A DNA stretch of 63,738 nucleotides, the filler included, from Octopus bimaculoides (taxonomy: Eukaryota), in NCBI RefSeq assembly GCF_001194135.2. It is 9 parts of 8 records of this genome, joined end to end, with 100 filler letters (N's around TTAATTAATTAA, not from the genome) between each part and the next. Parts side by side here need not be neighbours in the genome. Positions count along the whole stretch, not along the records: positions 1 to 15,831 come from NC_068994.1; positions 15,932 to 28,564 come from NC_069000.1; positions 28,665 to 31,039 come from NC_069007.1; positions 31,140 to 49,894 come from NC_068981.1; positions 49,995 to 51,554 come from NW_026437371.1; positions 51,655 to 53,904 come from NW_026316518.1; positions 54,005 to 58,913 come from NW_026301057.1; positions 59,014 to 62,179 come from NC_068981.1; 1 more part is not named here. The stretch is one strand, 5' to 3'. Within the stretch, counting starts at the first letter, position 1. The number at the start of each line of letters is the position of its first letter. Shown here one piece after another: positions 6,301 through 63,664 of the stretch. The notes beneath the pieces are model-generated. The model was not told the origin of the DNA. It did not search any database and saw only the letters and a list, made by a program, of their open reading frames with translations. A program made the position numbers and the translations under genes.

Positions 6301-6547
6301 GAAGACAGGTGGCGTAGACAACAAACAGATGTATTAGTTTAACGCTCAGGAAGTGAAAAAGTCTTTAACGTTTCGAGCCTACGCTCTTCCACAGAAAAGA
6401 ACACAGAAAGAAACAAGAAGAGAAAATGAAGAATGTGTAGTGACTAGCGATCTATTATGGCGAATGCCGGACAGAATGCGGACACAGGAGAGCTAGGAAG
6501 AAGAGATAATAAAGTAATGGTGATCCCAAAACGAAGGTGCGCATGCG
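6301..6547 (-). mobile_element. ~250-bp repeat (PLE-terminus-like) with a variant hammerhead core, copy 1
   Basis: Reverse-complement homolog of 50586-50835; the minus strand reads CTGTGGA-A-GAGC-GTAG-GCTC-GAAAC-GTT-AAAGA. Confidence 0.7.
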
Positions 6548-7412
6548 TTTGTATAAGAGAGCATTAGGTGCGTGTGGAAGAGGGATGGTGACCTTGACGT
6601 GTGCGTGTATGCATGTGTAGGTATGTGGATGATGGTGTGGGTGCTGGGAAGTGGTCAGTGCTAGTGTGTGTGGAGTGGTGTGATGTGATGTGGTGTTGTG
6701 TGATATAGTGGTGTAGTGTGGTGGTGTGTGGTGGTGTGTGGTGTGGTGATGTGTGGTGTGGTAGTGTGTGGTGTNNNNNNNNNNNNNNNNNNNNNNNNNN
6801 NNNNNNNNNNNNNNNNNNNNNNNNNNNNNNNNNNNNNNNNNNNNNNNNNNNNNNNNNNNNNNNNNNNNNNNNNNNNNNNNNNNNNNNNNNNNNNNNNNNN
6901 NNNNNNNNNNNNNNNNNNNNNNNNNNNNNNNNNNNNNNNNNNNNNNNNNNNNNNNNNNNNNNNNNNNNNNNNNNNNNNNNNNNNNNNNNNNNNNNNNNNN
7001 NNNNNNNNNNNNNNNNNNNNNNNNNNNNNNNNNNNNNNNNNNNNNNNNNNNNNNNNNNNNNNNNNNNNNNNNNNNNNNNNNNNNNNNNNNNNNNNNNNNN
7101 NNNNNNNNNNNNNNNNNNNNNNNNNNNNNNNNNNNNNNNNNNNNNNNNNNNNNNNNNNNNNNNNNNNNNNNNNNNNNNNNNNNNNNNNNNNNNNNNNNNN
7201 NNNNNNNNNNNNNNNNNNNNNNNNNNNNNNNNNNNNNNNNNNNNNNNNNNNNNNNNNNNNNNNNNNNNNNNNNNNNNNNNNNNNNNNNNNNNNNNNNNNN
7301 NNNNNNNNNNNNTATATATATGTATGTATGTAAGTATGTATGTATGAATGTATGTATGTATATATGTATGTATGTATGTATGTATGTATGTATGTATGTA
7401 TGTATGTATGTA

Positions 7413-7535
7413 TACGACGGGCTTCTTGTAGTTTCCGTCTACCAAATCCGCTCACAAGGCGTTGGTCGGTCCGAGGCTGGAGTTGAAGACTAAACGGACT
7501 GAGACAGAACCCGGAACCATATGATTGGGAAGCCA
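7413..7535 (-). mobile_element. SINE family A, tRNA-head half with internal deletion
   Basis: ACGACGGGCTTC..GTTTCCGTCTACCAAATCC..GAACCCGGAACC matches 20448-20607. Confidence 0.8.
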
Positions 7536-7562
7536 TTTTAGTCGAATGTATCCACCCTGGCA

Positions 7563-7975
7563 CTTATTCTACCGGTTTCTTTTGCCGAAACACTAAGCTA
7601 CAGGGACATAAGCACACCAGTACCGGTTGTCTAGAAGAAGGAATGGAGGCGGTCGAGGAGGCAGAGGCCTCCTCAAAGAAGGGTCGCAAGAGGAAGAAGG
7701 TGAGCAACAATGGTTGCTCACCGAGGGATCCTAGGGCTGAGAGAAGGGAGGTGGATCTCCCGGTTCCGGAGGAAACCCACCCTTCCTCAGTAAGAAAGAA
7801 AAGAAAGAGGAGGGAAAAGAAAAATGGGACATTGCCGGCAGTCGGTAACACAAGGACACACACGCACGGGCTTCTTTCAGTTTCTGTCTATCAAATCCAC
7901 TGACAAGACTTTGGTTGGCCCGGTGCTACAGTAAAAGACATTTACCCAAGGTGCTACGCAGTGGGGCTAGACCCT
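7563..7975 (-). mobile_element. SINE family A interrupted by a ~210-bp foreign purine-rich insert
   Basis: Body (7563-7631) and head (7846-7975) match family A; 7632-7845 does not. Confidence 0.7.
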
Positions 7976-8092
7976 ACACACACTGAAATATTATGTATAA
8001 ATATATGTAATATAATATATATATATATATATGTGTGTGTGTGTGAATCAAAGGTACCGATAGATATGTAAATCAAAGGATATTAAAGTGAT

Positions 8093-8176
8093 GACCCTGA
8101 AGAAACTGCTCCGTTATAATGGTAGGGTTGCAACTGCAACAGTTACTAATCGATGCAGTAGAAACGAGTGTAGGTC
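8093..8176 (+). ncRNA. Minimal type-I hammerhead ribozyme-like motif
   Basis: GACC-CTGAAGA-A-ACTGC..GCAGT-A-GAAAC-GAGT-GTA-GGTC: intact core, 4-bp stem I, 5-bp stem II, imperfect stem III. Confidence 0.6.
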
Positions 8177-8204
8177 TATTTGAAGCTGTATATATCTGTG
8201 TATG

Positions 8205-8850
8205 TGTCTTTTACTCTTTTACTCTTTTACTCTTTTACTTGTTTCAGTCATTTGACTGCGGCCATGCTGGAGCATCGCCTTTAGTCCAATCAAATCGACC
8301 CCAGGACTTATTCTTTGTAAGCCTAGTACTTATTCTATCGGGGTTTTTTTCCAAACCACTAAGCTACGGGAACGTAAACACACCACCATCGGTTGTCAAG
8401 CGATGTTGAGGTGGGGGGGGGACAAACACAGACACACACACACACACATACACACANNNNNNNNNNNNNNNNNNNNNNNNNNNNNNNNNNNNNNNNNNNN
8501 NNNNNNNNNNNNNNNNNNNNNNNNNNNNNNNNNNNNNNNNNNNNNNNNNNNNNNNNNNNNNNNNNNNNNNNNNNNNNNNNNNNNNNNNNNNNNNNNNNNN
8601 NNNNNNNNNNNNNNNNNNNNNNNNNNNNNNNNNNNNNNNNNNNNNNNNNNNNNNNNNNNNNNNNNNNNNNNNNNNNNNNNNNNNNNNNNNNNNNNNNNNN
8701 NNNNNNNNNNNNNNNNNNNNNNNNNNNNNNNNNNNNNNNNNNNNNNNNNNNNNNNNNNNNNNNNNNNNNNNNNNNNNNNNNNNNNNNNNNNNNNNNNNNN
8801 NNNNNNNNNAACCATGTGGTTGGTAAGCAAGCTACTTACCACACAGCCAC
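8205..8850 (-). mobile_element. SINE family A, near full length, gap over the internal microsatellite
   Basis: (CTTTTACT)n tail, body, CA repeat, N gap, then tRNA head end ACCATGTGGTTGGTAAGCAAGCTACTTACCACACAGCCACT. Confidence 0.85.
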
Positions 8851-61974: not shown

Positions 61975-62095
61975 GTGTGATCAAGAAGCTCGTTTTGCAA
62001 CCTTGTGGTTTTGGATTCGGTCCCTCAGCGCAGCACCGTGGGCAAGTGTCTTCTACTATAAGCCTGGGTCGACCAATGCTTTGTGTGTGAATTTG
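61975..62095 (+). mobile_element. SINE family A, head half
   Basis: GGGCAAGTGTCTTCTACTATA..GTCGACCAA. Confidence 0.7.
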
Positions 62096-62282
62096 ACAGC
62101 CTTGAACAATTAAAAAAAAAATAACAATACAAACAAATTATGAGTTGTAAACGCAGACTCATAATTTATTTGTATTGTTNNNNNNNNNNNNNNNNNNNNN
62201 NNNNNNNNNNNNNNNNNNNNNNNTTAATTAATTAANNNNNNNNNNNNNNNNNNNNNNNNNNNNNNNNNNNNNNNNNNNNTAT

Positions 62283-62412
62283 ATATACGACGGTCTTTCA
62301 GTTTCCGTCTACCAAATCCACTCACAAATCTTTGGTTGACCCGAAGGTTATAGTAGAAAATACTTGTCCATGTGGTTGAGAAGTAATCTTCTGACCACAC
62401 AGCCACACCTGG
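62283..62412 (-). mobile_element. SINE family A, head half with deletion
   Basis: TACGACGG..TTTCAGTTTCCGTCTACCAAATCCACTCAC..ACCACACAGCCAC. Confidence 0.8.
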
Positions 62413-62500
62413 ACCAAATATAAAATATTTCATTCTCTGTTTAATTTAGATAAATGTATTTAATCTCATCTTTGTTTTGTATAAGGCAAGGTCGGACATT

Positions 62501-62547
62501 TTATCGTACTGATGACGTTATTGCGCCAGAAACACGTGTCCACGACT
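62501..62547 (+). ncRNA. Degenerate minimal hammerhead-like motif
   Basis: TCGTA-CTGATGA-CGTTATTGCGCCA-GAAAC-ACGT-GTC-CACGA; palindrome ACACGTGT and GUC triplet; weak stems I and II. Confidence 0.55.
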
Positions 62548-63039
62548 GTTCTCTTATTTTCCAGCAATAATCTTGTCCTTAACCTAAATAGCATGTCAAT
62601 TTCGGAGAATCTTTTATCCATGAGATAATTTATCCTTCTCTAGTGAAGCTGGTCCTTATATATCCAAGTCCGGCGATTAATTTCAGTTTGAAGTGTGTCG
62701 AGTACACGCTACTGAAGAGCTGCAAATAACAGAGAGAAATTGGGGTGAGTTGTCTCGCCTGGTCAAAGACAGAGTTCTTTAACGGTCAGCATCTTGTAGG
62801 GAGCTTTCCCAAGGTGCTATCCCGAGGCAGTGCGGTGTATAAACAAAACACTTATATGCAAATACGTACATGGATGCGTGGCAGGATATCAAAATAGACA
62901 AAAAAAAAAGTACAATTTCCAATGGGAGAGAGAGACAAAATAATCCAGCAGTTAAATTGAGAAGGGACTTAATAGAAAGAGTCAAAGTAGCGTATGGTTC
63001 AGATGAAGGGAAATTCGATATCCCCTTCATCAGAGTGTC

Positions 63040-63553
63040 TAAATGTTCGATTTGCAGTTGATAATCAACTCATTCCGGTTTTTTCAGAGGTTTGTTTTTA
63101 CCGAACAATAATATTTAAATTGCTTCCTGGCTACAAAACCATGGCTTTCATTCTCCTGTGTATAGTGTGGTAAATTTCTCTGTGTTCCATTACATTGTGC
63201 AGTGGGTGTTTTGATTTTTAAGTTTCCAGACTTACTCAGCCAAAGAAGTAGAGCGGGCCAATTTAGAGTATTGGAACGAGTGGACATGTATATAAAAGTG
63301 CTTATGAGATTGTTGGCTGTAGCCCATACATAGTTACACACGTAATTTCTTGACACCTGTAAACGATCTTTTTAGCAAGATAGTTTCCGATCAAAGGGCA
63401 ATCAAATGTATTTTTACAATTACAAGTTCCTGTGCCATGGGCTCCACTGGTAGAAGCATTGGGAGTATTTATGTTTCGTATCTGTTCAGTGTTTGCTGCT
63501 AAAATAAATGTGGGAAATGTCAAAACATTATTGTTGTTTGAGCGGCTAGTCAA
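63040..63553 (-). pseudogene. GIY-YIG endonuclease fragment of a Penelope-like element
   Basis: CNCKNTFDCPLIGNYLAKKIVYRC, then STSLAE*VWKLK in a shifted frame. Confidence 0.7.
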
Positions 63554-63583
63554 CTAGCCACGTTAATTGGGTTCAGTTTCTGA

Positions 63584-63664
63584 AACTCTGACGAGTTATA
63601 AGCGTGATACACATGCACTCGACTTTAAGTGCAATGCATCTTATAGCAGGAACAGTTGTCAGCT
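63584..63664 (+). ncRNA. Hammerhead-like motif, second copy of the 17440 family (core mutated)
   Basis: AACT-CTGACGA-GTTATAAG..CTTATAGC-A-GGAAC-AGTT-GTC-AGCT-AATGAAGTTC; 8-bp stem II; GAAA reads GGAA. Confidence 0.65.

What the first reader, a model, noticed from the sequence alone, without database searches (positions are those of the whole stretch)
6361..63664. Nine dispersed minimal hammerhead ribozyme motifs from several unrelated repeat families
Seen: CTGANGA..stem II..GAAAC..GTH motifs at 6361(-), 8093(+), 12557(+), 17440(-), 19785(+), 24533(-), 45520(-), 50735(+), 62501(+) and 63584(+); nine are credible if the weak 19785 motif is set aside. Stem III is loopless and usually palindromic (ACAGCTGT, ACGATCGT, ACACGTGT, ACGT). 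Stem II ranges from a 4-nt loop to a 90-nt insert, and flanks differ between families. Established: minimal hammerheads with palindromic stem III occur in Penelope-like element pLTRs and metazoan non-LTR retrozymes and are thought to fold as dimers. Inference: this genome hosts a diverse, apparently unannotated set of short non-autonomous ribozyme-bearing retroelements mobilised by PLEs such as the one at 46237-49480. Copies here are solitary, not tandem, so many may be inactive relics.
Basis: partly seen in the sequence, partly recalled or inferred. Interest (0 to 1): 0.8.

Follow-up and report, generated by a model that had tools for sequence, protein, structure and literature searches.

The report
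Octopus Penelope-type hammerhead ribozyme relics
Ten small hammerhead-ribozyme-shaped motifs are scattered through this stretch of octopus DNA and are likely the decayed tail ends of Penelope-like jumping genes, a kind already described in animals, though one very abundant family carries an unusual letter in its catalytic core whose effect on cutting is untested.

Summary
The window is Octopus bimaculoides DNA. All ten motifs are at the stated places, and the set exceeds chance: 5 score 8 or more, against a shuffle mean of 0.63 and a maximum of 4 in 919 shuffles. A covariance model trained on other organisms' Penelope-like element (PLE) hammerheads ranks four of them first. Five of ten have a changed core letter, and only two keep both core and stems. 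They form two pairs and six singletons, with no tandem copy in the window. The kind is known: minimal hammerheads of PLE ends, mostly solitary (PMC4209133), one already listed for this species (PMC8557442). This scan has found it before in other genomes. Whether these are non-autonomous elements or 5'-truncated PLE tails is unresolved. Worth following: family A (6394/50739) is very high-copy and has U at core position 6 in both window copies. RNA reads show no end pile-up at its cut site.

The parts
6363..6398 (-). Family A minimal hammerhead, core CTGTGGA (U at position 6), stem I 4 bp, stem II 4 bp with 4-nt loop, stem III ACGT, H17 at 6367
   Evidence: score 8.4; E 0.011
6301..6552 (-). Family A element, part shared with the 50579-50832 copy (86% over 257 nt); 3' end lost in an N gap
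8093..8176 (+). Hammerhead with intact core, stem I 4 bp, 5-bp stem II flanked by single A on each side, stem III 6 of 8 letters paired; short insertion downstream of a (TA)n(GT)n run
   Evidence: (score 11.9)
12556..12690 (+). Hammerhead relic, G12 changed to A, 7-bp stem II with 90-nt structured insert, stem III ACAGCTGT; (TA)n 188 nt downstream
   Evidence: (score 12.9)
17440..17520 (-). Family C hammerhead, intact core and stems, stem III ACAGCTGT; best copy in the window; microsatellite 56 nt downstream
   Evidence: (score 13.9)
19785..19829 (+). Weak relic: core letters intact, stem I unpaired next to the core; layout resembles Hydra-clade hammerheads of PMC8557442 File S2 (by eye)
   Evidence: partial match, E 0.031
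24534..24579 (-). Hammerhead with U3 core (TTGATGA), stem I 5 bp, stem III ACGT; same anatomy as hammerheads beside PLE ORFs in L052, L061, L064-L066
   Evidence: score 9.1; E 1.3e-4
45520..45607 (-). Hammerhead with intact core, stem I 6 bp, stem III ACGATCGT, base of stem II open; microsatellite about 138 nt downstream
45837..46081 (.). Self-inverted 245-nt segment (86.5%) at the 5' side of the 45601 insertion, directly after the (TA)17 run that ends the PLE; resembles the 5' inversions of PLE copies
   Evidence: PMC8557442 passage
46259..46269 (-).
   Evidence: same stem III in L001, L005, L010, L030; exact motif in 4 of 5000 shuffles, any palindrome of 6 nt or more in 4%
46119..49290 (-). 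Broken Penelope-like element: RT and CxxxxCxxC linker region 48340-46604 with frameshifts and stops, GIY-YIG part mostly in the N gap, tail ending in (TA)17
50734..50771 (+). Family A minimal hammerhead, core CTGTTGA (U at position 6), stem I 5 bp, stem II 4 bp, stem III ACAT in this copy (about 80% of laid depth reads G at 50764), H17 at 50766
   Evidence: score 7.4; E 0.003
50579..50870 (+). Family A element, very high copy in two Octopus-like organisms, ending in a TA/CA microsatellite
62504..62545 (+). Weak hammerhead: core intact, stem III ACACGTGT, first pair of stem I mismatched, stem II marginal
63584..63664 (+). Family C relic, A13 changed to G, 8-bp stem II, 80% identical to 17516 over 90 nt; (GT)n 40 nt downstream

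Best explanation
The ten motifs have the shape of minimal type I hammerhead ribozymes and are likely the ribozyme-bearing tail ends (pseudo-LTRs) of about eight Penelope-like retroelement families, inserted singly and now mostly decayed. Shown: anatomy, excess over chance, core changes, two family pairs, very high copy number and 3'-biased depth of family A, and the same motif type downstream of the ORFs of related PLEs. Inferred mechanism: a PLE reverse transcriptase/GIY-YIG protein nicks AT-rich or microsatellite DNA and copies RNA starting near its 3' end; early termination leaves short tails that hold the hammerhead. Every copy spans its cut site, so the template was uncut RNA, as reported in vitro for the anole PLE (PMC11167929). 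The loopless palindromic stem III would form only between two copies, so a lone copy would not cut; tandem copies would. Whether the source RNA was a full PLE or a non-coding derivative is not settled for any family.
For: Excess over shuffles and an independent covariance model. In 75 loci encoding relatives of the window's PLE, 34 of 37 hits scoring 8 or more lie on the ORF strand, many 120-870 nt past the ORF match. Their stems covary (93.6% of cells paired, 0 of 500 shuffles as high, 10 sequences picked for having the structure). The window's own PLE has a matching half motif 140 nt before (TA)17. A microsatellite lies within 200 nt downstream of 6 of 10 resolvable sites against 26% of random positions, P 0.026; upstream 3 of 8. 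Family A: RNA depth about 1100+1060 at the ribozyme against about 180-330 per direction 50-160 nt upstream; a loose end of (TA)n joins at 50703; two contigs of X14 join the element's end back to its upstream part through TA-rich letters, i.e. partial tandems. Published pattern: PMC4209133, PMC8557442.
Against: No PLE coding remnant was found upstream of any of the ten motifs, so none is tied to an ORF directly. The microsatellite test is modest, and 4 of 10 sites do not fit it. Four motifs (19791, 45601, 62509, 63588) are not individually significant by the scored descriptor. The 3' depth bias could partly reflect this copy being more diverged upstream (table 3). Monomer folding z-scores are unremarkable (8 of 10 above -1.5).
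Confidence: 0.8

Rival explanations
1. The abundant families (at least family A) are discrete non-autonomous elements, non-LTR retrozymes, that are transcribed from tandem master copies, cut and circularised by their hammerheads and reinserted by PLE proteins.
For: No ORF remnant upstream. Family A is shared over 160 nt upstream of the ribozyme without coding signal and is very abundant. Partial tandems exist in DNA contigs. Non-autonomous PLE derivatives are described (bioRxiv 10.64898/2026.07.22.740005; PMC7229834).
Against: No tandem unit in the window. Related PLEs have 120-870 nt between ORF and ribozyme, so 160 non-coding nt does not show non-autonomy. RNA reads gave no place where many molecules begin or end, and the 15 of 46 joints shown include no back-joint in RNA (fragmented libraries, about 6% of each run read, so weak). 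Described retrozymes use canonical type I hammerheads in tandem repeats, not loopless ones.
Confidence: 0.3
2. Family A amplified with a catalytically weakened core (U6), so its hammerhead fold serves as a recognition or packaging structure, or cuts only with protein or another metal, and does not act as an ordinary self-cleaver.
For: U6 in 2 of 2 window copies that are otherwise 14% apart. No row for 50742 among the 40 of 158 difference rows shown, while majority differences at 50734 and 50764 in the same depth peak are shown. A6C cuts far more slowly in Mg2+ but is rescued by Mn2+ (PMC7151607; PMC3088659). Ribozyme mutants did not block PLE insertion in vitro (PMC11167929). A separate U6 motif with a similar stem II lies in a PLE array in L065/L066.
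Against: 118 rows were hidden; by my reading of the shown rows the cut-off is near a 60% share, so an A6 subfamily of up to about half the copies is not excluded. In L050 a U6 copy has an A6 sibling in L072, so U6 also arises as plain decay. L065 and L066 are one sequence. Cleavage was not tested.
Confidence: 0.3
3. The motifs are chance look-alikes in AT-rich, repeat-rich DNA.
For: A strict descriptor finds none with a perfect core; mid-range scores occur in shuffled and reversed sequence; Rfam shows no hammerhead.
Against: (excess and independent model); family pairs keep the motif; depth of family A peaks on the motif. Chance remains possible for 19791 or 62509 singly.
Confidence: 0.03

Closest known systems
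Minimal hammerheads (min-HHR) in the pLTRs of metazoan Penelope-like elements (Cervera and De la Pena 2014, PMC4209133)
   Same: Type I order, short stem I, extra unpaired base after A9, loopless palindromic stem III, many heterogeneous families per genome, mostly single motifs; molluscan examples (Lottia, Crassostrea) and a U3 core (Saccoglossus) are in its alignment.
   Different: No octopus entry in the supplement file searched (file 1 could not be searched). Several motifs here have 50-100 nt stem II regions with an unpaired base on both sides. No U6 core in the alignment rows seen (part 2 of 3).
Hydra-clade PLE hammerheads, including Hydra-1_Obim of Octopus bimaculoides (Craig et al. 2021, PMC8557442, Files S1/S2)
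   Same: Same species; ribozyme about 100 nt from the 3' end; longer palindromic stem III; often an unpaired base on both sides of stem II; insertion into (TA)n.
   Different: Five short family-specific window motifs were absent from that supplement, so these are other families. The window's PLE has a CxxxxCxxC linker and C-terminal GIY-YIG relatives, i.e. Neptune-like (clade label from the paper's description; no tree built).
Non-LTR retrozymes (Cervera and De la Pena 2020, PMC7229834; Li, Clavereau and Pollet 2026 preprint)
   Same: Short non-coding hammerhead-bearing repeats thought to derive from PLE pLTRs, with many solo monomers.
   Different: Defined by tandem units and, where tested, circular RNAs; neither is seen in this window, and no RNA back-joint appeared among the joints shown for family A.
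A6C core-variant hammerhead of phage Bcep176 (PMC3088659, PMC7151607)
   Same: Natural change at core position 6.
   Different: C rather than U, a single phage locus rather than a high-copy animal repeat, and experimentally tested.

Membership tests
PLE minimal hammerhead (min-HHR) | Core CUGANGA, GAAA, UH in type I order | tested here: met
   Order holds in 10 of 10; letters intact in 5 of 10, one change in each of the other 5
PLE minimal hammerhead (min-HHR) | Stems I and II around the core, unpaired base after A9 | tested here: met
   Stem I of 4 bp or more next to the core in 6 of 10; stem II closed near the core in 7 of 10; both with intact core in 2 of 10
PLE minimal hammerhead (min-HHR) | Loopless palindromic stem III | tested here: met
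   Fully self-complementary in 8 of 10
PLE minimal hammerhead (min-HHR) | Stem covariation within each octopus family | tested here: inconclusive
   Only two copies per family held; covariation shown for hammerheads of related PLE loci, not for these families
PLE minimal hammerhead (min-HHR) | Self-cleavage as a dimer | not testable with these tools
   Computed one-site dimer is below two monomers in energy for 3 of 10 (12562, 17516, 62509) and above the best cofold for all 10; no RNA end pile-up for family A
Penelope-like element pLTR / 3' end | Lies downstream of an RT plus GIY-YIG ORF on the same strand | tested here: inconclusive
   Met by the half motif at 46269-46259; no ORF remnant upstream of the ten listed motifs, which truncation would also explain
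Penelope-like element pLTR / 3' end | Insertion at microsatellites, 5' truncation, 5' inversion, partial tandems | tested here: met
   6 of 10 within 200 nt of a downstream microsatellite, P 0.026; inversion 45837-46081; 3'-biased depth, (TA)n loose end and back-joints for family A
Non-LTR retrozyme | Tandem units each with a hammerhead | tested here: not met
   None in the window; only two single-copy-depth partial tandems of family A among the joints shown
Non-LTR retrozyme | Abundant circular or unit-length RNA | tested here: inconclusive
   Family A only: reads in both directions, no end pile-up, no RNA back-joint among 15 of 46 joints shown
Non-LTR retrozyme | Fixed-length, non-coding consensus | not testable with these tools
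   No whole genome is held for this window

The most novel reading that the evidence does not exclude
Family A is a PLE-mobilised element of thousands to about a hundred thousand copies in octopus whose hammerhead carries U6 as the family state, so one of the most abundant hammerhead folds in an animal genome spread with a core that should barely cut in magnesium; the fold would then be kept as a protein-binding or metal-gated switch and not as a plain self-cleaver.
Probability: 0.25. Interest if true: 0.6.

Novelty: new member of a known kind. Interest (0 to 1): 0.3.

Why it matters
As a class this is ordinary: it adds octopus families to a pattern described in 2014. Two points have some value. 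The density is high, about one supported motif per 6-10 kb in this one window (6 to 10 in 58,957 called bases), which hints that PLE tails are a sizeable part of the octopus repeat fraction now filed as unknown or unclassified. And family A offers a natural test of an open question, whether PLE hammerheads need to cut at all (stated as unclear in PMC8557442; not needed in vitro in PMC11167929), because a very successful family may carry a weakened core.

Tried and rejected
Rfam scan: only microsatellite-driven miRNA matches in the 150 of 182 rows shown. No whole genome is held; the tool that returns DNA around a protein was closed, so orthologous loci and empty sites in other octopuses were not seen. 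Exact family A patterns found nothing in viral, metagenome or prokaryote collections. U6 and A6 patterns in viral contigs gave 1 and 12 matches, none convincing (best scores 9.2 and 8.3). PLE protein scan of viral contigs: 86 candidates, none confirmed. Records behind L054-L066 are not held for wider search. No RNA holder was listed for 44900-46075. One protein search on a short piece of the PLE region found nothing. Other CTGANGA sites (62712+, 63033-, 16383+, 23006+, 49525-, 50180-, 25423-) were examined and dropped: no matching GAAA/palindrome/stem set, scores under 5 or absent from the top 30 of 94. A suspected GIY-YIG C-terminal remnant upstream of 12562 was not supported (rank 632 of 115,268 positions). 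Assigning 45601 to the neighbouring PLE was rejected: it lies beyond that element's (TA)17 end and shares no sequence with its tail. One search used wrong G12 positions for three motifs and is replaced. Lunse et al. 2017 was not held.
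Full report
Source. The exon at 35108-35974 (+) is 100% identical to an Octopus bimaculoides MEGF8 protein (cluster members), so the window is O. bimaculoides DNA. It has 58,957 called bases and 4,781 N. No whole genome is held, and the tool that returns DNA around a protein was closed, so family-wide alignments could not be made.

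Observation. All ten motifs are present near the stated coordinates in type I order. Parsed: five keep all invariant letters (8097, 17516, 19791, 45601, 62509) and five carry one change (U6 in 6394 and 50739, U3 in 24574, A12 in 12562, G13 in 63588). Only 8097 and 17516 combine an intact core with a 4-bp stem I and a closed stem II. Stem III is loopless and fully self-complementary in 8 of 10. Blastn of 800-nt flanks groups them into family A (6394/50739, 86% over 257 nt), family C (17516/63588, 80% over 90 nt) and six singletons. No tandem unit carries a motif (six rows, all microsatellites, at minimum score 150).

Chance. A strict descriptor gave 0 perfect-core hits and 3 one-mismatch hits. 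A scored descriptor put six listed motifs at ranks 1-6 of 94; 5 scored 8 or more against a mean of 0.63 and a maximum of 4 in 919 local dinucleotide shuffles; 3 scored 11 or more against 0.05. The reversed window gave one score of 9.4. Perfect core plus perfect 8-nt palindrome occurs 3 times against 0.09 (1 of 1198 shuffles). These descriptors were written after I had seen the motifs. As an independent test I built a covariance model from 10 hammerheads found beside PLE ORFs in other organisms (10 of the 21 first aligned, those with 4-nt stem III). Its best 4 of 26 window hits were 24574, 50739, 6394 and, partially, 19791 (E 1.3e-4 to 0.031); the motifs with long stem II and 62509 were not significant. 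The set is real; 19791 and 62509 are the least secure singly.

The PLE. Relatives of the 46610-47002 frame (573 at E up to 0.001, best 150 listed) include proteins with RVT_1 and GIY-YIG domains and map to 48340-46604 on the minus strand. The copy is broken by frameshifts and stops, has a CxxxxCxxC linker (Neptune-like by the description in PMC8557442; no tree built), and most of its endonuclease falls in the gap 46282-46607. In 75 loci encoding relatives (best 80 of 466 kept), 34 of 37 hammerhead hits scoring 8 or more lie on the ORF strand, many 120-870 nt past the ORF match. The top-scoring relative L001, and L005, L010 and L030, have stem III ACCGGT followed by T or C. The window's PLE shows GAAA-ACCGGT-T at 46269-46259, just after the gap and 140 nt before (TA)17; the exact motif arose in 4 of 5000 shuffles of the 163-nt tail and any palindrome of 6 nt or more in 4%. 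This is probably the element's own ribozyme. Its tail matches none of the ten motif regions. The 45601 motif lies beyond the (TA)17 run, behind a 245-nt self-inverted segment, and is best read as a second PLE-type insertion. Profiles of PLE C-termini found no coding remnant upstream of any of the ten.

Insertion context. A microsatellite lies within 200 nt downstream of 6 of 10 resolvable sites (nine listed motifs plus the PLE's own; 6394 runs into N) against 26% of 3,773 resolvable random positions, P 0.026; upstream the count is 3 of 8. (TA)n is the published target of Neptune, Hydra and Naiad PLEs, including the O. bimaculoides families (PMC8557442).

Family A in public runs. I laid 4 of the 24 listed runs on 50290-50889 at 80% likeness. 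Summed contig depth peaks on the ribozyme at 4.7 million in X1 and 6.6 million in X14 (a second organism label), against 47 for the contig that carries this locus in X1; 18,328 and 21,168 contigs were laid. The tool warns that this is no copy number, and overlapping short contigs can inflate it up to about 30-fold (my knowledge of such assemblies), so I take thousands to about 100,000 copies as the range; 2 copies in 59 kb fits it. About 80% of depth reads G at 50764, which restores the ACGT palindrome. Depth falls several-fold upstream in RNA reads and about ten-fold in contigs. One RNA loose end joins (TA)n to position 50703, and two X14 contigs join the element's end to its upstream part, i.e. 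partial tandems. RNA reads lie in both directions equally (strandedness of the library not established), no place collects many ends, and the 15 of 46 joints shown have no back-joint in RNA. Position 50742 (core position 6) has no row among the 40 of 158 differences shown. The shown rows all reach about 60% in some run, so I infer A6 is below that share; a sizeable A6 subfamily is not excluded. Both window copies have U6. In monomer folds U6 lets the core pair with the stem III strand into a rod. Among related loci U6 appears in L065/L066 (one sequence) and in L050, where an A6 sibling exists in L072; U3-A8, U3-G8 and other core variants are common there.

Mechanism. Shown: anatomy, decay, families, context. 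Inferred: these are PLE tails made by target-primed reverse transcription from RNA that had not been cut, since every copy spans its cut site. This agrees with PMC11167929, where ribozyme mutants did not impair insertion, cutting needed the PLE protein, and no RNA-seq reads ended at the cut site. A loopless stem III is expected to form only between two copies (PMC4209133; review PMC6765202), so single copies would be inert. Computed dimers give weak support only.

Comparison and novelty. PMC4209133 describes thousands of such motifs per genome, in many families, mostly single and probably from truncated PLEs. PMC8557442 lists a hammerhead for Hydra-1_Obim. The 2026 preprint ties animal retrozymes to PLE pLTRs and found cutting in 1 of 9 dimers tested. 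Searches for an octopus or cephalopod hammerhead study returned only PMC8557442 as relevant; two octopus or cephalopod repeat papers do not mention ribozymes. A search for A6U with hammerhead returned one twister paper, seen as a listing only. Earlier notes of this scan report the same kind in other genomes and none on this genome or on family A. Verdict: new members of a known kind; interest 0.3, carried mainly by family A.

What I saw of each paper. PMC4209133: parts 1-2 of 4, supplement file 2 search and part 2 of 3; file 1 could not be searched. PMC8557442: passages, supplement searches and part 2 of 59. bioRxiv 10.64898/2026.07.22.740005: parts 1-3 of 5; supplements not seen. PMC7229834, PMC11167929, PMC13282606, PMC8967140, PMC7151607, PMC3088659: passages. 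PMC6765202: passages and the second part of section 11. Lunse et al. 2017: not held, known only through that review; it catalogues PLE hammerhead variants and may already contain U6 or octopus examples. Repbase and Dfam were not available. Hammerhead numbering and the labels SINE, RTE-like and RLE-type used below are recalled.

Noticed in passing
window 35048-35977 (+): Last coding exon region of MEGF8; no other MEGF8 exon was found in the window by tblastn.
   Followed up: partly
window 963-3255 (+): Frameshifted hAT-type transposase remnant (DUF4371 below cut-off, hAT dimerisation domain E 5.5e-8).
   Followed up: partly
window 26170-26736 (-): 188-aa frame that looks like the C-terminal endonuclease of an RLE-type non-LTR element (label recalled; no Pfam match).
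   Followed up: no
window 49500-49894 (-): Piece of another reverse-transcriptase element (RTE-like by eye, untested) abutting the 5' side of the PLE.
   Followed up: no
window 62999-63033: Near-perfect hairpin whose minus-strand arm begins with CTGATGA; no GAAA/palindrome follows, so not counted as a hammerhead.
   Followed up: partly
window 50350-50545: A second, moderately repeated element (summed depth about 2,000-8,000) upstream of family A.
   Followed up: no
window 50676-50782: RNA-only joint skipping the ribozyme region, 76 reads in X23 and 41 in X24, letters between not known; may be a diverged transcribed copy.
   Followed up: no
window 45602-45620 (-): The 5' strand of stem I of the 45601 motif ends a pyrimidine-rich run with CAG, like a splice acceptor; in Drosophila virilis Penelope the intron end maps to helix I (PMC4209133).
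   Followed up: no
L052, L055, L061, L064-L067, L072: Dense arrays of different PLE families, each with its own hammerhead, many with U3-A8, U3-G8 or A3-U8 cores.
   Followed up: partly
window 7417-8454, 20132-20607, 62280-62420 and others: Several copies of two abundant octopus SINE-like repeats lie next to the motifs (label recalled).
   Followed up: no
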